From: an uncultured Candidatus Saccharibacteria bacterium
GTDB taxonomy: Bacteria > Patescibacteriota > Minisyncoccia > Phycocordibacterales > UBA9973
Assembly: GCA_964527235.1 (NCBI GenBank)
Contig: CAZGNC010000002.1
Coordinates: forward strand, 146,381 to 210,380
Direction of reading: 5' to 3'
Length of the DNA: 64,000 nt
This document shows, in pieces, positions 40,053 through 47,120 of the stretch (within the stretch, counting starts at the first letter, position 1; each line of letters starts with the position of its first letter). A model generated the notes under the pieces. That model searched no databases and was not told the DNA's origin. It saw only the letters and a program-made list of their open reading frames with translations. The position numbers and the translations under genes were made by a program.

Positions 40053-40385
40053 ATGGAACTAAACGAATATCAAAAACAAGCTTTAACGACTGCAGCGTAT
40101 GATGATAAATATAAAATCATTTATCCTGCACTGGGTCTTGCAGAGGAGACTGGGGAAGTCGTCGGCAAGGTCAAGAAGTGGTTACGTGGAGATGATGGGG
40201 TAGGAGAGATGAGCGCTGAACGCAAGGAAGCACTTAAGGGCGAGCTCGGAGATGTGCTCTGGTACTTGTCGGTGCTTGCTAGTAACTTAGATATGACACT
40301 TGAGGAGGTTGCTAAGTGGAACGTAGATAAACTACAATCAAGGAAGGCTCGAGGTTTGATAAAGGGCGATGGGGACACAAGGTAA
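40053..40385 (+). CDS. MazG-like nucleotide pyrophosphohydrolase
   Basis: 110 aa; EE..E and ELGDVLWYL motifs. Confidence 0.7.
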   Translation: MELNEYQKQALTTAAYDDKYKIIYPALGLAEETGEVVGKVKKWLRGDDGVGEMSAERKEALKGELGDVLWYLSVLASNLDMTLEEVAKWNVDKLQSRKARGLIKGDGDTR

Positions 40386-42018
40386 TATGCAGATGGAAGA
40401 TAAAATAAAAAAATTAATAAATAAAGCGCTTGAAAATCTTGGCATGGGAGATGTGTCTTTTGTCGTTGAGCATCCTGGAGATGTAAAGATGGGGGACTAT
40501 TCGACTAATGTTGCTATGGCACTAGCCAAGACTGCTAAGTCTAACCCGCGTGAACTCGCAGGTAAAATAGTAGATGAATTAAAAAAAGATTTACCGAAAG
40601 AAATTGAAAAAGTAGAATCCGCAGGTGCAGGTTTTATAAATTTCTATTTATCTCCAGAGTTTTTCTCTAATGCCACAGAAGAAATTTTACAAGATGAGAG
40701 ATTTGGTGCAAACGAGAATTTAAATAAACAAAAGATAATGGTTGAGCATACTGACCCGAATCCTTTCAAGGAGTTTCACGTGGGTCACTTGATGCCCAAC
40801 GTCATAGGCTCTACTATAGCGCGAATCTTAGAATGGAATGGTGGAGAAGTTAGCCAGGCATGTTATCAGGGCGACGTCGGTATGCATGTGGCGAAAGCAG
40901 TTTGGGCCTTGATGCAAGGCTCTGACATCAAGACCGCTTATGCTGATGGATCACGAGCATTTACAGAAAGCGAAGAGCACAAGAAAGAAATTCAAGAAAT
41001 AAACAAGAAGATATATCAGAAGACAGACAAAGAAATAAATAAAATTTACGAAGATGGACGCAAGGAGAGCCTTGAGTATTTCGACTCAATGTACAAGATG
41101 CTCGGGCAGAGCTTCGACTATTTCTTCTTTGAGTCTGAGGTCGCGGGTAAGGGTAAAGAAATAGTAGAGCAAAATATTGGTAAAGTCTTCGAAAGTGGGG
41201 ATGGTGGAGCGGTAGTGTTCAAAGCAGAGAATTTCGACAAGAGTCTTCACACTCGTGTGTTCATAAACGGCGAAGGTCTGCCGACTTATGAGGCGAAAGA
41301 GCTGGGTCTCGCTGAAATAAAATACGAAAAATATAAATATGATAAATCAATAGTAATAACTGGTAACGAGATAAATGATTATTTTAAAGTTTTGCTTTGT
41401 GCAATGAAGCAGATTTTCCCGGAGCTTGCTTCGAAGACTCTGCACTTCTCGCACGGTATGCTCCGCCTCCCTACAGGCAAGATGAGTTCTCGCACTGGCG
41501 ACGTCATAACCGCAGAAAGTTTGATAGAAATGCTTAAAGATAAAGTGAAAGGCGATGAGAGAGTGGCGATAGGTGCTATCAAGTATATGATCCTCAGGCA
41601 GTCTGTCGGCGGAGATATAATTTTCGATATTGAGAAGTCTGTATCTACCGAAGGTGACTCGGGCGTGTATCTACAGTACTCTCACGCGCGTGCGCATTCG
41701 ATACTAGAGAAAGCTAAAGAAGAAAGTATAAAGCCTGATGCCACTATCCCAGACGGCTGGGCAACGACCGAAGTCGAGAGACTGCTTTATAGATTTCCTG
41801 AAGTCGTTACTCGTGCAGGAGAAGAGTTCGCTCCGCACTATATAGTGAACTACCTCACCGAGCTTGCACGTGCTTATAATAGCTTCTATGGCAACAACCT
41901 AATAGTGAAAGCAGGGGATGATACTTCGCCTTACAAAGTCGCTCTAAGTGAGGCCTTCGCTACTGTTATGAAAAACGGGCTCACAATTCTCGGTATCGAT
42001 GCCCCAGATAGGATGTAG
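40369..42018 (+). CDS. argS: Arginyl-tRNA synthetase
   Basis: 549 aa; Arg_tRNA_synt_N; class I HVGH; DALR anticodon-binding domain. Confidence 0.9.
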   Translation: MGTQGNMQMEDKIKKLINKALENLGMGDVSFVVEHPGDVKMGDYSTNVAMALAKTAKSNPRELAGKIVDELKKDLPKEIEKVESAGAGFINFYLSPEFFSNATEEILQDERFGANENLNKQKIMVEHTDPNPFKEFHVGHLMPNVIGSTIARILEWNGGEVSQACYQGDVGMHVAKAVWALMQGSDIKTAYADGSRAFTESEEHKKEIQEINKKIYQKTDKEINKIYEDGRKESLEYFDSMYKMLGQSFDYFFFESEVAGKGKEIVEQNIGKVFESGDGGAVVFKAENFDKSLHTRVFINGEGLPTYEAKELGLAEIKYEKYKYDKSIVITGNEINDYFKVLLCAMKQIFPELASKTLHFSHGMLRLPTGKMSSRTGDVITAESLIEMLKDKVKGDERVAIGAIKYMILRQSVGGDIIFDIEKSVSTEGDSGVYLQYSHARAHSILEKAKEESIKPDATIPDGWATTEVERLLYRFPEVVTRAGEEFAPHYIVNYLTELARAYNSFYGNNLIVKAGDDTSPYKVALSEAFATVMKNGLTILGIDAPDRM

Positions 42019-42038
42019 TTGCTTTTTAGTGTAGAGTG

Positions 42039-42077
42039 TGTTATAATATACGTGAACCATTCACAGGAGTTTTTTGC
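42039..42077 (+). promoter_or_regulatory. Promoter-like TGTTATAAT and AGGAG SD for the small GC-rich ORF
   Basis: Extended -10 at 42039-42047. AGGAG at 42064-42068 is 8 nt upstream of the ATG at 42078. Confidence 0.4.
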
Positions 42078-42305
42078 ATGCTGATCGGGCTCGACGCTAA
42101 GGGAGTGGAGGAAATCGAGGAGATGGATAGGATGGGGCGCAGAAACCCACGGCTTGTTGCCGCTGCGGTTCGACGCACCAACCCTCCGGTAGACGACCCG
42201 CGGTTCGCAGCGCAGGTCGTTCGGGCAGCAAATGCCACCGTTGTCTTCAAGCAGGCCGTGCTGATCGCGATCAGTGCAGCGCTGGCGCGGCGAGGCAGTA
42301 AGTAG
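42078..42305 (+). CDS. Small GC-rich hypothetical protein (76 aa), probably horizontally acquired
   Basis: ORF with a good SD inside a ~60% GC island. The internal 14-bp palindrome CTGATCGCGATCAG lies at 42262-42275. It ends at a strong terminator. Confidence 0.35.
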   Translation: MLIGLDAKGVEEIEEMDRMGRRNPRLVAAAVRRTNPPVDDPRFAAQVVRAANATVVFKQAVLIAISAALARRGSK

Positions 42306-42318
42306 GCAACATCAAGAT

Positions 42319-42356
42319 GGGGGCAGTCGCAGTCGCGACTGCCCCGTTTGCTTTTT
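42319..42356 (+). terminator. Rho-independent terminator (GGGGGCAGTCGC-AGTC-GCGACTGCCCCG plus T-run)
   Basis: Perfect 11-12 bp stem followed by TTTGCTTTTT. Confidence 0.65.
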
Positions 42357-42399
42357 ATATTTACTTTAAGTTTAATTTTGCTACTATATTATGTATAAG

Positions 42400-42565
42400 C
42401 ATTGAAGGGGCTATCACCCCTGAGCTTTGGGAAGAAAGCCGAAAGGTGAGTAGAACCCTTAAATGAGAAGCCCCGCGAGAGGCGGGTAACAAGCAAGGTG
42501 GTACCACGGGGAAACTCGTCCTTGAGTTATAACTTAGGTTGTAATTCGTGGACGAGTTTTTTTAT
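42400..42565 (+). promoter_or_regulatory. T-box riboswitch leader (Ile-responsive) upstream of ileS
   Basis: T-box core AAGGUGGUACCACGG. Terminator AAACTCGTCC...GGACGAGTTTTTTT. Candidate AUC specifier in the GGGGCU-AUC-ACCCC hairpin. Confidence 0.55.
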
Positions 42566-42575
42566 TTTTAATAAT

Positions 42576-45500
42576 ATGGAAGAAAAAAATATAACAAAAA
42601 AGAGTGATGTAGTGCTTCGCGAGGAGCGTGTTTTGAATTTCTGGAAGGAGCAAAGAATTTTCACAAAGTCAGTAGAAGCAAATGAAGGCAAGCCAGAATT
42701 TGTATTCTATGAAGGTCCACCTACAGCCAACGGCAAGCCTGGCATTCACCACCTCGAAGCTCGCGCATTTAAGGATGCGATACCTAGATACAAGACCATG
42801 CGAGGATTTCATGTGCGCAGGAAGGGTGGCTGGGATACGCACGGGTTGCCGGTAGAGCTTCAAGTAGAGAAGAAGCTAGGGCTTAATTCCAAGAAAGCCA
42901 TAGAGGAATTCGGCATTGATAAATTCAACCAAGAGTGCAAGAAGAGTGTCTGGGAGTATCTAGAGATTTGGAATAAATTTACCGAGCGTATTGGTTACTG
43001 GGTGGATCAAGATAATCCATATGTGACCTATCACAACAATTACATCGAGTCTGTCTGGAGTATTCTTGAGAAAGTTAACAATCAGAAATTACTTTATAAA
43101 GATTATAAAGTTGTGCCTTGGTGCCCACGTTGCGAGACCGCTCTTTCTTCTCACGAGCTCGCCCAGGGGTACGAAGATGTGAAAGATCTTTCTATCACGG
43201 CGAAATTTAAACTTACCAACTCCGCCAGTGAAAAATTTTTTCAGGTCCTCGGAAAAAATCCCCAGACCGTTCAAAAATCTTCCCCTGGCTCCGTTTTCAT
43301 ACTTGCTTGGACCACGACTCCTTGGACATTGCCTGGCAACATAGCGCTTGCTGTAGGGGAAGATATAGATTATGTGTTAGTTAAAGTCGAAAATGATTTT
43401 GTGATTTTGGCGAAAGAGCGCCTAGCGAAAGTTGCAGAAGGACATGAAGTTCTAGGTGAATTAAAAGGTAAGGATTTGGTGGGTTTAGAATACGAACCAC
43501 TTTTCCCATATCTTAGAAATTTATTACAGCAAGAAGGTGAGTCTATAGAGAAAGCTTTCAAGGTTTATTCTGCTGACTTTGTGACTACTGAGGACGGTAC
43601 TGGTGTGGTGCATACTGCTGTTATGTACGGGCAGGACGACTTCGAGCTTGGTACGAAATTAGGTTTGCCCAAGATTCATTTAGTTAGTCCTGATGGTAAA
43701 TTTGTGAAAGGCACAAGCTTCCTAGAAGGTAGATTTGTGCGCGAAGAAATAGATGGCAAGCCAACTTTAGCAGTTGATCTTATTAAAGAATTACAAGCTA
43801 AGAATTTATTCTTTAGTAAAGAAAATTATCTGCACTCATATCCGCATTGCTGGCGTTGTCACACTGCACTTATCTACTACGCTAGAGATTCTTGGTACAT
43901 TAGAATGTCTGACCCAGATGTCAAAGGCAGGCTGATCAGTGAAAACAAGAAGATAAACTGGGAGCCAGAGCATACTCGCGAAGGGCGTTTCGGTGAGTGG
44001 CTCAAGGATATAAAAGATTGGGCCGTGTCTCGTGAGCGTTATTGGGGAACTCCGCTTCCTGTATGGGAGTGTTTTCGATGTGATAATAGAAGCGTCATCG
44101 GCGGGCTCGAAGATTTGAAAAATAAGTCCAAGAAATCTGGTAATAAATATTTCGTAATGCGTCATGGTGAAGCCGAGAAGAATGTTAAAAATATAATAAA
44201 TTCTACCAACGATAATCCTTCGCCTCTGACTGCGAAAGGTAGGGAGCGTGCCAAAGACGGCGCTAAGAATATAGGAGAAAAGATTGATCTTATTTTTGCT
44301 TCACCACTTTTACGCACTCAAGAAACTGCGAAAATAGCTGCCGAAGAACTCGGCCTATCTCCAAAAGAAATAATAACTGACGACAGGCTTATAGAAATTC
44401 AGTCAGGAGTTCTGAATGATAAACCAATAACAGAATTCAGAAGTTTCTTCGCTTCGCACTCTGATCGTTTCCATCAGGCCCCAGATGGTGGAGAGAACTT
44501 AACCCAGGTTAAAAGACGAATGGGGGAATTCTTGTACGACATAGACAAGAAGTATGCTGATAAAAATATTTTAATTGTGAGCCATGAAGATTCTATATGG
44601 ATGCTTGAGGCTGCTGCCAAGGGTCTCGATAGTTACGGCAGTAGCTTGTTGTGGTTGCCTGGAGGTAAGAACTTTATAGACATGGGAGAGGCGCGAGAGA
44701 TAGAATTCACACCAATACCTCACAACCAGGATTGCGAGCTTGATTTCCATCGTCCATTTATCGACGAGATAAAGCTTGTATGTGATTGTGGAGGAGAGAT
44801 GACTCGCGTGAAAGAAGTTATGGATGTATGGTTCGACTCAGGTGCGATGCCTTTCGCCCAGGATCATTATCCTTTCGAGAATAAAAAGTGGGTAGATGGT
44901 GATGGTTTCCCTGCAGACTATATCTCTGAGGCAATAGATCAGACTCGAGGCTGGTTCTATACTCTGCATGCTATTGGGGTGCTGATGGGTAAAGGTCAGG
45001 CATATAAGAATGTTATTTGCTTGGGACACTTGCTAGATGCTAATGGGAAGAAGATGTCTAAGTCTTTGGGCAACGTAGTGGACCCTTGGGATATGATAGA
45101 GAAGTACGGTGTAGATACCTTGAGACTCTGGATGTATTCAGTGAATCAACCTGGTGAGTCAAAGAACTTCGATGAGAAGACCGTGGCGTTACTAAATCAG
45201 CAAGTGTTCGGTTTGCTCTACAACGTCTTGGCTTTTTATGAGCTTTATCGAGATAAAAGTTTAGAAAATAAAACTGAAAACATTGAGCCAGATAATATTC
45301 TGGATCAATGGATTTTGGTACGTTTAGTTGAGCTGTCTAATCTCTGTACTGAGAATATGGATGAGTACAGGCTTCTCGAACCTGTGCGTGCCATAAGGGA
45401 TTTCGTAAATGATTTGTCGACTTGGTACCTACGACGTTCTCGCGACACAATAAAAGGAGGAGATGAGAGCACCAAGCAGACATTGTATTTTGTGCTTAAA

Positions 45501-46115
45501 ACCTTAGCTAAAATCATGGCTCCATTTGCTCCACTCGCATCTGAGGATATATGGATAAAGTTAAGAAATGAAAGTGATGTAGAAAGCGTGCACCTAGCCT
45601 CATGGCCAGACGTGGCAGATATGGGTCGCTATGATGTTGTAGAATTTATGCAGAGGACTCGCGAGATAGTGTCTCTTGGTCTTGAAGCGCGACAACAAGC
45701 CAAGATTCAAGTTCGTCAGCCACTAGCGAAAATAACTGTAAAGAATTTGAAATTAAAAGAAGAATTTATTGCTCTAATCAAAGAAGAATTAAATGTTAAA
45801 GAAGTTGTTGAAGACAATAGTATCGAGAAAGAAGTAGAGCTTGATACTGTTATAACTCCTGAGCTAAAAGCTGAAGGGGATTATCGCGAGTTCGTTAGAG
45901 CGCTACAAGAAGCTCGCAAGAAGCAAGGACTCAACCCTAGCCAGCCAGTGAAGATAACTATAAATGCTACCAAAGAAGGCAAGGAGTTACTTAAGAAATT
46001 CTCTAAAGATTTACAGAAAGTCGTACTCGCGGTGAAGATAGAGGTAAAGAAAACTGAAGGTGAAGAGATCAAAATAGGTAAAATTGTTTTTAAGGTAAAA
46101 ATTGAGAAGAAATAA
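42576..46115 (+). CDS. ileS: Isoleucyl-tRNA synthetase with a nested histidine-phosphatase (PGAM-like) domain
   Basis: 1179 aa from MEEKN. The ORF-track start at 42498 lies inside the T-box. HIGH-like PPTANGKPGIHH; CP editing domain; KMSKS at ~45050. A ~200-aa insert (nt ~44090-44730) carries RHGE...SPLLRTQETA...IVSHEDS between WECFRCDN and LVCDCGG. Confidence 0.9.
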   Translation: MEEKNITKKSDVVLREERVLNFWKEQRIFTKSVEANEGKPEFVFYEGPPTANGKPGIHHLEARAFKDAIPRYKTMRGFHVRRKGGWDTHGLPVELQVEKKLGLNSKKAIEEFGIDKFNQECKKSVWEYLEIWNKFTERIGYWVDQDNPYVTYHNNYIESVWSILEKVNNQKLLYKDYKVVPWCPRCETALSSHELAQGYEDVKDLSITAKFKLTNSASEKFFQVLGKNPQTVQKSSPGSVFILAWTTTPWTLPGNIALAVGEDIDYVLVKVENDFVILAKERLAKVAEGHEVLGELKGKDLVGLEYEPLFPYLRNLLQQEGESIEKAFKVYSADFVTTEDGTGVVHTAVMYGQDDFELGTKLGLPKIHLVSPDGKFVKGTSFLEGRFVREEIDGKPTLAVDLIKELQAKNLFFSKENYLHSYPHCWRCHTALIYYARDSWYIRMSDPDVKGRLISENKKINWEPEHTREGRFGEWLKDIKDWAVSRERYWGTPLPVWECFRCDNRSVIGGLEDLKNKSKKSGNKYFVMRHGEAEKNVKNIINSTNDNPSPLTAKGRERAKDGAKNIGEKIDLIFASPLLRTQETAKIAAEELGLSPKEIITDDRLIEIQSGVLNDKPITEFRSFFASHSDRFHQAPDGGENLTQVKRRMGEFLYDIDKKYADKNILIVSHEDSIWMLEAAAKGLDSYGSSLLWLPGGKNFIDMGEAREIEFTPIPHNQDCELDFHRPFIDEIKLVCDCGGEMTRVKEVMDVWFDSGAMPFAQDHYPFENKKWVDGDGFPADYISEAIDQTRGWFYTLHAIGVLMGKGQAYKNVICLGHLLDANGKKMSKSLGNVVDPWDMIEKYGVDTLRLWMYSVNQPGESKNFDEKTVALLNQQVFGLLYNVLAFYELYRDKSLENKTENIEPDNILDQWILVRLVELSNLCTENMDEYRLLEPVRAIRDFVNDLSTWYLRRSRDTIKGGDESTKQTLYFVLKTLAKIMAPFAPLASEDIWIKLRNESDVESVHLASWPDVADMGRYDVVEFMQRTREIVSLGLEARQQAKIQVRQPLAKITVKNLKLKEEFIALIKEELNVKEVVEDNSIEKEVELDTVITPELKAEGDYREFVRALQEARKKQGLNPSQPVKITINATKEGKELLKKFSKDLQKVVLAVKIEVKKTEGEEIKIGKIVFKVKIEKK

Positions 46116-46146: not shown

Positions 46147-46539
46147 ATGAAGACGATTTTGGTTGATGGAGCTTATACTTTTACTATAGAAAAAGATGGG
46201 CATTTTGTGATTTTTTCGGAGATGCAGGATTTATTAGAAAGATATCCAAATAGAAAGATAATTTTAACCGGGGCAGATAAAGAAAAACAAAAATTCTACG
46301 CCTTAGATCAGGTCCCTTATGAGCTTTTTACACTCAATCATAATCCACCTAAAACTAACCCAGAATATTACAGGACCATGCTCAACACACTTCAACTAGA
46401 TCCTGCTGATTTGGTTTACTTTGAACACACCCTCGAAGCTGTAAAAAGCGCCCAGTCTGTTGGCATTAATACTTATTTTTACGATGATAACAAGAAAGAT
46501 TTAGTAGGACTAAAGAAATTTCTCGACGAGAATTTGTAA
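46147..46539 (+). CDS. Hypothetical protein, possibly a HAD-like hydrolase fragment
   Basis: 130 aa; ILTGADK and YFYDDNKKD reminiscent of HAD-superfamily motifs III/IV. Confidence 0.35.
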   Translation: MKTILVDGAYTFTIEKDGHFVIFSEMQDLLERYPNRKIILTGADKEKQKFYALDQVPYELFTLNHNPPKTNPEYYRTMLNTLQLDPADLVYFEHTLEAVKSAQSVGINTYFYDDNKKDLVGLKKFLDENL

Positions 46540-47120
46540 TGCACCACATTTATCACACAGAAGGCATAATACTAAGTAGCAGGAATTTCGGAGAATCGGG
46601 GAAGTATTATCATATCCTCACTCGAGATTTGGGGCTTGTGATGGCTTCGGCTTCAGGCGTGCGCAAGATGTCATCGAAATTGCGATTTATATTGCAGGAC
46701 TTTTCTTATTTGAAAATTGATTTAGTGAAAGGCAAAGACTTCTGGCGAGTCACCAGTGCTTCTAAGACTAATGTTTTAGAAGACATCACCAAGAAGCCTG
46801 AGATATTTGCGATCTTAGCGAACATATCGCGCTTGCTCAAGCGACTTCTCCCAGGAGAAGAATTTAACGAAAGTTTATTTACTGATTTAGTGCATGGTCT
46901 AGATGTTTTAGCTAAAGCCAAGACTAAAGAAGAATTGCGCAACATCGAAGCGGTTATGGTTTTGCGTATTTTGAATAGTTTGGGATATATAGGGGACAGT
47001 GAAGCATTGAAAGATCTAGTAAGTTCGCCTTTCGTGTATGACATTCTCCACGAAGTTGGTGCTAAGAGGGTGCATATACTCTCAGAGATAAACAAAGCCC
47101 TAAAGGAAACTCAGCTTTAA
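46539..47120 (+). CDS. recO: DNA repair protein RecO
   Basis: 193 aa; N-terminal OB fold (TEGIILSSRNFGESGKYYHILTRDLG); short. Confidence 0.6.
   Translation: MHHIYHTEGIILSSRNFGESGKYYHILTRDLGLVMASASGVRKMSSKLRFILQDFSYLKIDLVKGKDFWRVTSASKTNVLEDITKKPEIFAILANISRLLKRLLPGEEFNESLFTDLVHGLDVLAKAKTKEELRNIEAVMVLRILNSLGYIGDSEALKDLVSSPFVYDILHEVGAKRVHILSEINKALKETQL

What the first reader, a model, noticed from the sequence alone, without database searches (positions are those of the whole stretch)
44088..44732. Complete histidine-phosphatase (PGAM/SixA-type) domain nested inside isoleucyl-tRNA synthetase
The sequence shows a ~200-aa segment with the full His_Phos_1 signature between WECFRCDN (CxxC) and LVCDCGG (CxC). 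The motifs are FVMRHGE (catalytic RHG), SPLLRTQETA and IVSHEDS (second catalytic His), in correct order and spacing. These two Cys pairs normally form one zinc knuckle about 40 aa apart. Here they flank the inserted domain, so its termini would be clamped together. This is the geometry expected for a domain inserted into a loop. HIGH, the CP editing domain and KMSKS are all intact around it. I am not aware of any aaRS carrying a histidine phosphatase. It could act on a phosphorylated nucleotide, tRNA end, Ap4A-like product or inhibitor, which is speculative.
Basis: partly seen in the sequence, partly recalled or inferred. Interest (0 to 1): 0.88.

Follow-up and report, generated by a model that had tools for sequence, protein, structure and literature searches.

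The report
Phosphatase domain nested inside isoleucyl-tRNA synthetase
A complete, apparently active histidine-phosphatase enzyme sits inside a zinc-knuckle loop of the essential isoleucyl-tRNA synthetase of a tiny "candidate phyla radiation" bacterium; sister lineages encode the same phosphatase as a separate gene just upstream of ileS or nest it in valyl-tRNA synthetase, which points to an undescribed accessory activity of these synthetases.

Summary
One uninterrupted ORF (42576-46115) encodes a type-2 IleRS. About 200 aa (44118-44717) score as Pfam His_Phos_1 (E 2e-31) and replace about 5 residues of the CP3 zinc-knuckle loop (C499/C502...C736/C738 = T. thermophilus C461/C464...C502/C504).

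It is not a chimera. The identical protein occurs in independent assemblies, and all 120 best homologues (61-70% identical, Paceibacteria/Nomurabacteria) share the architecture.

The catalytic Arg-His...Arg...Glu...His set is kept in about 280 of 293 domain copies, while the cap region that normally selects the substrate is unconserved.

New here:
- In Staskawiczbacteria the same phosphatase family is a free-standing 189-195 aa gene directly upstream of an insert-less ileS, in the same argS-ileS-recO synteny.
- Other IleRS carry one or two copies at three different sites.
- ValRS of Gracilibacteria/Peregrinibacteria carry 1-4 copies, mostly in the homologous CP3 loop.

The domain is therefore an active phosphomonoesterase repeatedly coupled to class Ia synthetases. 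Its substrate is unknown. I found no literature on it.

A compact T-box leader with an AUC specifier precedes the gene.

The parts
42393..42563 (+). Compact T-box-like leader of ileS. It has an ultrashort stem I, GGGG(42407-10)-CUAUCA-CCCC(42417-20), with an AUC Ile specifier at 42413-42415. The T-box sequence AAGGUGGUACCACGG is at about 42497-42511. A terminator hairpin ACTCGTCC (42514-21)/GGACGAGT (42550-57) is followed by a U-run.
   Evidence: RF00230 scores 43 bits, below the gathering score of 93, with E 1.5e-8 in the local search. An 80%-identical leader with an AAAUCA loop lies upstream of the 64%-identical ileS in L087.
42576..46115 (+). ileS, a type-2 isoleucyl-tRNA synthetase of 1179 aa with a nested phosphatase domain.
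   Evidence: TIGR00392 scores 875 bits. Best solved relatives are PmIleRS2 8c8w and Tt IleRS 1ile. P0001 is 100% identical over 1179 aa.
42741..42752 (+). Class I signature motif in the swapped, non-canonical form G-I-H-H.
   Evidence: (G/A)XHH occurs in 109 of 120 homologues. The motif is described in PMC10485003.
43122..43859 (+). CP1 editing domain bracketed by CPRC (43122-33) and CWRC (43848-59). It contains the editing motifs WTTTPWTL and GTGVVHTAVMYGQDD.
   Evidence: The sequence is. All four Cys and the editing motifs are invariant in the homologues.
44070..44081 (+). First half (CFRC, C499/C502) of the CP3 zinc knuckle.
   Evidence: It aligns to Tt IleRS C461/C464. Each of these two Cys is present in 108 of 120 homologues, and all four CP3 Cys together in 107 of 120.
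44118..44717 (+). Nested histidine phosphatase (His_Phos_1) domain, aa 515-714. Catalytic residues: RHG 44160-44168, N536 44181-83, R580 44313-15, E607 44394-96, H670 44583-85. A family-specific N-x-Y is at 44142-50.
   Evidence: Pfam scores 109-114 bits. The AF2 insert-only model has pLDDT 89.5 and pTM 0.87. Its fold matches PspA, PhoE and CobC.
44781..44789 (+). Second half (CDC, C736/C738) of the CP3 zinc knuckle.
   Evidence: It aligns to Tt IleRS C502/C504.
45051..45065 (+). KMSKS loop.
   Evidence: Invariant in 120 of 120 homologues.
40369..42018 (+). argS, the upstream member of the conserved argS-(His_Phos)-ileS-recO block.
   Evidence: ORF. ArgRS Pfam families are recorded for the identical upstream gene of L001. 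The synteny is seen.
46539..47120 (+). recO, the downstream member of the conserved block.
   Evidence: Pfam RecO_N and RecO_C. The synteny is seen.

Best explanation
SHOWN:
- The window encodes the housekeeping, T-box-preceded, type-2 (GXHH) IleRS of a Paceibacteria-class Patescibacteria (CPR) bacterium.
- A complete branch-1 histidine phosphatase domain of about 200 aa is nested at the tip of the CP3 zinc-knuckle loop, so its two ends are clamped by the zinc site.
- The phosphate-binding and catalytic set is under strict purifying selection: Arg529-His530 (nucleophile), Asn536, Arg580, Glu607 (general acid), His670.
- The same phosphatase family exists in three arrangements. It is a free-standing gene immediately upstream of an insert-less ileS in the same synteny. 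It is nested at three or more sites of IleRS. It is nested in ValRS, mostly in the homologous loop.

INFERRED:
- The domain is an active phosphomonoesterase that works together with the synthetase, not a passive spacer.
- It most likely arose by relocation of the neighbouring gene into a permissive surface loop.
- The phosphate pocket is invariant while the cap and loops that normally choose the substrate are unconserved. I therefore infer that the substrate is either recognised only through its phosphate or is positioned by the synthetase body.

MY BEST GUESS at the substrate class is a phosphorylated nucleotide-type species at the aminoacylation/acceptor-end site. Candidates are a 2'/3'-(pyro)phosphorylated tRNA CCA end, or a nucleotide product such as AMP. 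This last step is speculative.
For: Architecture and scores.

Not a chimera:
- The identical protein is found on two independent Logan assemblies plus NCBI.
- All 120 best homologues carry PF00133+PF00300.
- GC is flat across the junctions.
- There are no flanking repeats.

Selection:
- The insert is only about 40% identical between homologues, against about 74% for the IleRS body.
- Even so, R/H are kept in 286 of 286 aligned copies, R580 in 293 of 293, E607 as E or D in 290 of 293, and H670 in 284 of 285.
- Cap residues 608-637 have 0 of 30 positions conserved at 90% or more.

Coupling to IleRS:
- Free-standing relatives are 37-45% identical, as close as nested copies are to each other.
- In 78 species-representative loci, 18 copies are nested in ileS, 39 lie 200 nt or less upstream of ileS, and 15 lie upstream with 350-1950 nt between. 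Only 5 are unlinked, of which 3 are distant hits at 24-30% identity.
- Each locus has either a nested copy or an adjacent copy, never both.
- The empty CP3 knuckle is intact in IleRS encoded next to the free-standing gene.

Independent recurrences:
- IleRS carries the domain at sites A, B and C, and as tandem copies.
- 71 of 120 listed ValRS from Gracilibacteria/Peregrinibacteria carry 1-4 copies. 73 of 87 copies lie in the homologous WGHxIP...TWFSS loop.
- There are no simple end-to-end fusions, although the free gene ends a few nucleotides before ileS.

Genuine ileS: a T-box leader with an AUC specifier precedes it.
Against: - No activity or substrate has been tested.
- The closest solved folds are ordinary small-molecule phosphatases: PspA, PhoE, TIGAR, GpgP, CobC.
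- The nested copies are not basic (median pI 6.3), which does not favour an RNA substrate.
- The adjacency of free-standing genes to ileS comes mostly from one related group (Staskawiczbacteria), where the whole argS-ileS-recO block is conserved. Those loci are therefore not independent observations.
- The same IleRS loops also tolerate unrelated inserts: a RAYT transposase, GNAT and HD domains. Tolerance plus co-expression could explain nesting without any mechanistic coupling.
- Two insert-less ValRS loci have no phosphatase gene nearby.
- Inter-domain geometry could not be assessed. The full-length model has pTM 0.51 with a poorly modelled Rossmann core, and no coordinates were available.
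Confidence: 0.6

Rival explanations
1. Hitch-hiking or gene economy. The phosphatase is a housekeeping small-molecule enzyme whose only link to IleRS is co-expression. A neighbouring gene slipped into a permissive surface loop of an essential protein in a minimal genome and is retained there, with no mechanistic interplay.
For: - The free-standing form is evidently functional on its own.
- The closest folds are small-molecule phosphatases.
- The same IleRS loops hold unrelated domains: a RAYT transposase in CP1, GNAT at site B and a C-terminal HD.
- The whole argS-ileS-recO block is syntenic, so adjacency may reflect descent.
Against: - The same family recurs at three or more IleRS sites, in tandem copies, and in ValRS of other CPR classes in the homologous loop.
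- No trivial end-to-end fusions were seen, although the genes are 0-20 nt apart.
- The catalytic core is kept in every copy, including second to fourth copies.
Confidence: 0.3
2. Non-catalytic module. The domain is a pseudo-enzyme used as a structural or tRNA-phosphate-binding appendage of CP3.
For: The domain evolves fast outside its core. CP insertions in class I synthetases often serve structural or tRNA-binding roles (general knowledge).
Against: Not only the phosphate-binding Arg/His but also the general acid Glu607 (E or D in 290 of 293), Asn536 and the GES Glu640 are conserved across nested and free-standing copies. Pseudo-enzymes normally lose some of these.
Confidence: 0.05
3. Assembly chimera or recent mobile insertion.
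For: None found.
Against: - The identical protein occurs in independent assemblies.
- More than 100 diverged homologues have the same architecture, on contigs up to 600 kb.
- Composition is uniform.
- No target-site or terminal repeats were found.
- The insert-only protein has no match to PADLOC defence models.
Confidence: 0.01
4. It is the organism's cofactor-dependent phosphoglycerate mutase (dPGM), or another named enzyme (PspA, CobC, SixA), merely fused to IleRS.
For: The best NCBIfam match is dPGM_arch NF038349. Some sources name the free-standing relatives 'putative phosphoglycerate mutase' or 'PhoE'.
Against: - All named models score far below their cutoffs: dPGM_arch 85 vs 225, PspA 58 vs 350, CobC 58 vs 163, SixA 33 vs 74.5.
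- No conserved basic residues occur in the cap where dPGM binds the distal phosphate or carboxylate (the dPGM residues are from my own knowledge).
- Up to four copies in one synthetase is odd for a glycolytic enzyme.
Confidence: 0.04

Closest known systems
Type-2 isoleucyl-tRNA synthetase (IleRS2), e.g. T. thermophilus 1ILE and P. megaterium IleRS2 8C8U/8C8W
   Same: It has the same overall domain order: Rossmann fold, CP core, CP1 editing, CP2, CP3 with a four-Cys zinc motif, KMSKS, anticodon domain and a type-2 C-terminus (DUF5915). It shares the (G/A)XHH signature described for hyper-resistant IleRS2.
   Different: About 200 aa of a foreign enzyme domain replace 4-5 residues at the tip of the CP3 knuckle. 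No solved or described IleRS has this.
Branch-1 histidine phosphatases of about 200 aa (PhoE/YhfR 1H2E, PspA 4IJ5, CobC 6NRU, Rv2419c 4QIH)
   Same: It has the same fold (TM 0.7-0.77), the same size and the complete catalytic set RHG...N...R...E...H.
   Different: Identity is only 20-29%. It is below the cutoff of every named NCBIfam model. It has a family-specific N-x-Y before strand 1. It is nested in, or operonic with, a class Ia synthetase. The cap is not conserved.
NCBIfam NF040702 'isoleucine--tRNA ligase, N-acetyltransferase domain-containing' (ileS_w_GNAT)
   Same: It is a precedent for an IleRS carrying an extra enzyme domain. One relative here (P0184) carries a GNAT domain at site B together with the phosphatase at site A.
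   Different: The enzyme class is different. The window protein scores 325 bits against a cutoff of 1999 and is not a member.
Bifunctional RNase H / acid phosphatase (NCBIfam PRK07238; Rv2228c/RnhC type)
   Same: It is a His_Phos_1 domain covalently joined to a nucleic-acid enzyme. It is the second-best NCBIfam hit of the insert at 76-80 bits.
   Different: That protein is an end-to-end fusion, not nested, and has a different partner. The score is below its cutoff of 326.
Small alarmone hydrolases that remove the pyrophosphate put on the tRNA CCA end by toxSAS toxins
   Same: They give a functional precedent: phosphorylated tRNA 3' ends block aminoacylation, and a phosphohydrolase restores chargeability (bioRxiv 10.1101/2021.04.30.441581; PMC11559606).
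   Different: They have an unrelated fold (HD/RSH), they are free-standing, and no evidence links them to this domain. This is an analogy only.

Membership tests
Isoleucyl-tRNA synthetase (TIGR00392 ileS) | The whole-protein score reaches the curated equivalog cutoff. | tested here: met
   875 bits against a cutoff of 621.4, despite the split by the insert.
Isoleucyl-tRNA synthetase (class Ia) | Class I signature motifs HXGH and KMSKS. | tested here: met
   KMSKS is present and invariant. HXGH is replaced by GIHH, the functional non-canonical (G/A)XHH variant documented for IleRS2 (PMC10485003).
Isoleucyl-tRNA synthetase (class Ia) | CP1 editing domain with a Thr-rich peptide and the GTG.VH...D motif. 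| tested here: met
   WTTTPWTL and GTGVVHTAVMYGQDD are present and invariant in 80 homologues.
IleRS type 2 (IleRS2) | Closest to IleRS2/Tt IleRS rather than IleRS1. It has a type-2 C-terminal domain and no C-terminal zinc-binding domain. | tested here: met
   8c8w and 1ile score about 750 bits, against 308-317 bits for IleRS1 structures (8c9e, 1ffy). The DUF5915 C-terminus is present.
Histidine phosphatase superfamily branch 1 (Pfam PF00300) | The score is above the gathering cutoff. | tested here: met
   109-114 bits against a cutoff of 21.7; E 2e-31 to 9e-33.
Histidine phosphatase superfamily branch 1 | Catalytic RHG His nucleophile, second Arg, general-acid Glu and second His, in order. 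| tested here: met
   R529-H530-G531, R580, E607 and H670 are present. They are conserved in about 280 or more of 293 domain copies.
Histidine phosphatase superfamily branch 1 | Phosphomonoesterase or mutase activity. | not testable with these tools
   This needs an enzyme assay.
dPGM (NF038349 dPGM_arch; TIGR01258) | The score reaches the curated cutoff. | tested here: not met
   85-87 bits against 225; 27 bits against 81.7.
PspA phosphoserine phosphatase / CobC alpha-ribazole phosphatase / SixA | The score reaches the curated cutoff. | tested here: not met
   PspA 58-62 against 350; CobC 58-62 against 163; SixA 33-36 against 74.5.
ileS_w_GNAT (NF040702) | The score reaches the cutoff and a GNAT domain is present. 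| tested here: not met
   325 bits against 1999. No GNAT domain is present in the window protein.
T-box leader (RF00230) | The score reaches the Rfam gathering score. | tested here: not met
   43 bits against 93. Stem I is reduced from about 76 nt to 6 nt.
T-box leader (RF00230) | A specifier codon matching the regulated gene, the conserved T-box sequence, and a terminator/antiterminator. | tested here: met
   AUC lies in the stem I loop, followed by a purine. AAGGUGGUACCACGG is present. A terminator hairpin plus U-run follows. All are conserved in L087.

The most novel reading that the evidence does not exclude
Class Ia synthetases of CPR bacteria (IleRS, ValRS) have repeatedly recruited a dedicated phosphatase as a third catalytic site. 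This site would act on a substrate held by the synthetase itself. The most exciting possibility is removal of a 2'/3'-phosphate or pyrophosphate from the tRNA CCA end. That would be a built-in tRNA-end repair or anti-toxin activity that makes blocked tRNA chargeable again.
Probability: 0.15. Interest if true: 0.92.

Novelty: new variant of a known kind. Interest (0 to 1): 0.75.

Why it matters
Aminoacyl-tRNA synthetases are among the best-studied enzymes. Their known accessory catalytic modules are hydrolytic editing domains. A phosphatase wired into the catalytic body would be a new kind of accessory activity.

Three features make the case here:
- The domain is nested in an essential IleRS.
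- It recurs in ValRS in the homologous loop.
- It is interchangeable with an operonic free-standing gene.

The finding supplies natural 'split' and 'fused' versions for experiments. It gives an example of how a neighbouring gene can become a nested domain. It shows that current annotation pipelines name many of these proteins only 'class I tRNA ligase family protein'. It also adds to the picture of CPR bacteria packing extra functions into essential genes.

If the substrate turns out to be the tRNA end or a product of the charging reaction, that would reveal a new layer of translation quality control or defence.

Tried and rejected
- Assembly chimera or recent mobile insertion: rejected.
- Assignment to a named phosphatase (dPGM, PspA, CobC, SixA, GpmB): all below cutoffs. 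The fold search gave only generic relatives.
- Defence-system models (PADLOC) for the insert, the free-standing homologue and the neighbouring small ORFs: no hits.
- HD add-on of the 1324-1365 aa variants as a small-alarmone-hydrolase relative: only a weak, generic HDIG/HD match. The best PDB hit is 1xx7 at E 0.18. This gives no support.
- Basic charge as a hint of RNA binding: not found.
- Full-length AF2 model to locate the phosphatase pocket relative to the active sites: pTM 0.51, catalytic core poorly modelled, no coordinates returned. It was not usable.
- T-box in loci with the free-standing gene, and in five other nested loci: none found. It was found only in the window lineage and in L087.
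- Free-standing phosphatase next to insert-less valS: not seen in two loci.
- Domain tree to count insertion events: the NJ tree is star-like and poorly resolved. Only coarse statements are possible.
- Literature searches for an aaRS with a histidine phosphatase: nothing found.
Full report
**1. What is in the sequence**

Window 42498..46115 (+) is one open frame. The true start is the ATG at 42576, for two reasons. The database holds an identical 1179-aa protein, P0001. The 180 nt upstream form a leader that ends in a terminator hairpin and U-run just before this ATG.

Pfam finds tRNA-synt_1 split in two, His_Phos_1 at aa 552-711 of the long ORF (109 bits, E 2.3e-31, cutoff 21.7), Anticodon_1 and DUF5915. 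NCBIfam calls the whole protein ileS: TIGR00392 at 875 bits against a cutoff of 621.

GC content is flat across both junctions, and no repeats flank the insert.

**2. Where exactly the domain sits**

The closest solved relatives are P. megaterium IleRS2 (8c8w) and T. thermophilus IleRS (1ile), so this is a type-2 IleRS.

In the alignment to 1ile, window C499/C502 match Tt C461/C464 and window C736/C738 match Tt C502/C504. Window residues about 521-721 take the place of Tt residues 483-487. Against 8c8w, residues 515-714 take the place of 475-478.

This four-Cys site is the zinc motif of the CP3 subdomain of Tt IleRS (PMC7191050).

All four Cys are present together in 107 of 120 homologues. The editing motifs and KMSKS are intact and invariant.

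One correction is needed. The class I signature is G-I-H-H, not HIGH. (G/A)XHH is found in 109 of 120 homologues. It is the non-canonical motif shown to give mupirocin hyper-resistance in IleRS2 (PMC10485003).

**3. It is real and old**

The identical protein is encoded on two independent Logan assemblies and in NCBI. All 120 best homologues are 61-70% identical and carry PF00133 plus PF00300. Where named, they are Candidatus Paceibacterota, Nomurabacteria, Minisyncoccia or 'Patescibacteria group'. Their contigs reach 600 kb. The assembly-chimera reading is excluded.

**4. The domain looks catalytically alive**

Between homologues the insert is only about 40% identical, against about 74% for the synthetase body. 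Even so, N523, Y525, R529, H530, N536, G555, S576, R580, E607, E640, R648 and H670 are invariant in an 80-sequence alignment.

Across 293 domain copies (nested, free-standing, and second to fourth copies):
- the RH dyad is present in 286 of 286 aligned copies;
- R580 is present in 293 of 293;
- the general acid is E or D in 290 of 293;
- H670 is present in 284 of 285.

By contrast, the cap (aa 608-637) and the 538-550 loop shape the substrate pocket in this superfamily, and they have no position conserved at 90% or more.

The insert-only AF2 model is confident (pLDDT 89.5, pTM 0.87). It resembles the ~200-aa phosphatases PspA, PhoE, TIGAR, GpgP and CobC at TM 0.67-0.77 and 20-29% identity. It reaches the cutoff of none of the named NCBIfam models. 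It is therefore a distinct subfamily with no assignable substrate.

**5. The key new evidence: the same phosphatase is a partner of ileS in three arrangements**

An exhaustive search with the insert alone found 898 proteins at E<1e-10. Among the best 150:
- 72 have IleRS flanks on both sides;
- 26 are IleRS fragments;
- about 40 are free-standing proteins of 185-210 aa that start with Met and share the N-x-Y...RHG start, at 37-45% identity. This is as close as nested copies are to one another.

These free-standing proteins are mostly from Candidatus Staskawiczbacteria. They are encoded immediately upstream of an insert-less ileS (972-990 aa), in the same argS-[phosphatase]-ileS-(variable)-recO order as the window. 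The window's own close relatives keep argS-ileS[nested]-recO.

In 78 loci from species-representative genomes:
- 18 copies are nested in ileS;
- 39 lie 200 nt or less upstream of ileS on the same strand;
- 15 lie upstream with 350-1950 nt between;
- 5 show no ileS in the locus. Three of these are distant hits at 24-30% identity in other phyla;
- 1 is a fragment.

No locus has both a nested and an adjacent copy. The IleRS that sits next to the free gene has an intact, short CP3 knuckle, i.e. the empty site. No simple end-to-end fusion was seen among the best 150, even though the free gene often ends within 0-20 nt of the ileS start.

**6. Recurrence elsewhere**

More divergent IleRS (35-42% identical) carry two copies at different places:
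- site A is the CP3 knuckle;
- site B lies between WFDSG and QxRGWF;
- site C lies about 70 aa after KMSKS;
- one group has two tandem copies in site A.

Copies within one protein are not each other's closest relatives.

Among 120 ValRS retrieved with one such protein, 71 carry one to four His_Phos_1 domains. Where named, these are Candidatus Gracilibacteria or Peregrinibacteria. 73 of 87 copies lie between WGHxIP and (D/E)TWFSS, the loop homologous to IleRS site A. Eight or nine lie before DWxISRQ.

Two paralogous class Ia synthetases in different CPR classes have thus acquired the same kind of domain in the same loop.

**7. Interpretation**

Shown:
- a complete phosphatase domain under purifying selection;
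- nested in a genuine housekeeping IleRS;
- exchangeable over evolution with an operonic free-standing gene;
- recurrently nested in IleRS and ValRS.

Inferred:
- It is an active phosphomonoesterase whose function is tied to the synthetase.
- The invariant phosphate pocket combined with an unconserved cap suggests one of two things. Either specificity is broad, or the host enzyme presents the substrate.

My preferred but speculative class of substrate is a phosphorylated nucleotide-type species at the acceptor-end or aminoacylation site. Phosphorylated tRNA CCA ends that block charging, and hydrolases that reverse this, are documented. That is an analogy, not evidence.

Against this reading:
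- the nested copies are not basic;
- the nearest folds are small-molecule enzymes;
- the HD add-on of some variants shows no specific relation to alarmone hydrolases.

The main rival is hitch-hiking in permissive loops for co-expression only. It is helped by the finding that the same IleRS can also hold a RAYT transposase domain, a GNAT domain and a C-terminal HD domain. It is also helped by the non-independence of the Staskawiczbacteria loci. It is weakened by the recurrence of one family at several sites and in ValRS.

Three other readings are rejected or unlikely, for the reasons given under the rival explanations:
- pseudo-enzyme;
- assembly chimera;
- a plain dPGM, PspA or CobC enzyme.

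**8. Novelty**

Nine full-text searches were run, and one recent preprint on IleRS domain evolution was read. None gave a description of a histidine phosphatase in or next to an aaRS.

The architecture is visible in databases, but many sources name these proteins only 'class I tRNA ligase family protein'. NCBIfam has a special model for a GNAT-bearing IleRS but none for this one.

I rate it a new variant of a known kind: a synthetase with an added catalytic module. It carries an unusually strong comparative signal and has an unknown mechanism.

**9. Side finding**

The leader at 42393-42563 is a compact T-box. It has:
- a six-nucleotide stem I loop, CUAUCA, carrying the Ile codon AUC;
- the canonical GGUGGUACC box;
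- a terminator hairpin.

It scores 43 bits, below Rfam's gathering score of 93, because stem I is almost deleted. An 80%-identical leader with an AAAUCA loop precedes the 64%-identical ileS of L087. This supports the view that the fused gene is regulated as a true ileS.

Noticed in passing
window 42393-42563 (+); L087 3798-3950: A compact T-box leader lies upstream of ileS. It has an ultrashort stem I whose loop (CUAUCA in the window, AAAUCA in L087) carries the Ile codon AUC. It also has the GGUGGUACC box and a terminator. It scores below Rfam's gathering score (43-44.5 bits against 93). I know of no described T-boxes in CPR bacteria. It is absent from the other loci checked.
   Followed up: partly
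window 42741-42752: The class I signature motif is GIHH, the swapped (G/A)XHH motif that confers mupirocin hyper-resistance in IleRS2 (PMC10485003). Among 120 relatives, 9 have VLHT and 2 have PLHS, variants that fit neither HXGH nor (G/A)XHH.
   Followed up: partly
P0396-P0513; e.g. L091 5001-8270: Valyl-tRNA synthetases of Gracilibacteria/Peregrinibacteria carry 1-4 nested His_Phos_1 domains, up to 1626 aa in total. Most are in the loop homologous to the IleRS CP3 knuckle. That loop has no Cys in these ValRS.
   Followed up: partly
P0184 (JGI, 1066 aa; contig 11293 nt): One IleRS carries three inserted domains. A Y1/REP-associated tyrosine transposase domain sits inside CP1 (aa 326-472). His_Phos_1 sits in CP3. 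A GNAT acetyltransferase sits after WFDSG (aa 921-1065).
   Followed up: no
window 46147-46539; L086 7515-8153; L088 (C-terminus of P0064): The slot between ileS and recO holds a different hydrolase-like gene in each relative. The window has a 130-aa HAD-IA-like ORF that seems to lack the DxD nucleophile motif. L086 has a metallo-beta-lactamase-fold protein. L088 has an HD/HDIG domain fused to the IleRS C-terminus. L087 has nothing there.
   Followed up: partly
window 42036-42352: A GC-rich island (0.53-0.55, against about 0.41 around it) lies between argS and the ileS leader. It holds a 75-89 aa ORF with no Pfam or PADLOC match and ends in a strong hairpin, GGGGCAGTCGCAGTCGCGACTGCCCC, plus a T-run. 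No Rfam family reached its gathering score.
   Followed up: partly
P0121 (538 aa): This ORF starts with Met, runs directly into the His_Phos domain, and continues into the C-terminal half of IleRS. It may be a split ileS or a frameshifted gene call.
   Followed up: no
L003 8573-11491, L005 8669-11641, L007 8576-11539: The insert-less Staskawiczbacteria IleRS next to the free-standing phosphatase is divergent (37-38% identical). It reads EMHKS where KMSKS is expected and GQFKNWFY where DQTRGWFY is expected.
   Followed up: no
L003 3740-4089, L005 2490-2840, L007 3005-3351, L011 840-1169, L047 1046-1372 (all - strand): A tmRNA gene next to smpB lies a few kb upstream of the argS-ileS block in both nested and free-standing lineages. 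In the three loci with gene calls (L003, L005, L007) infC, rpmI and rplT lie beside it.
   Followed up: no
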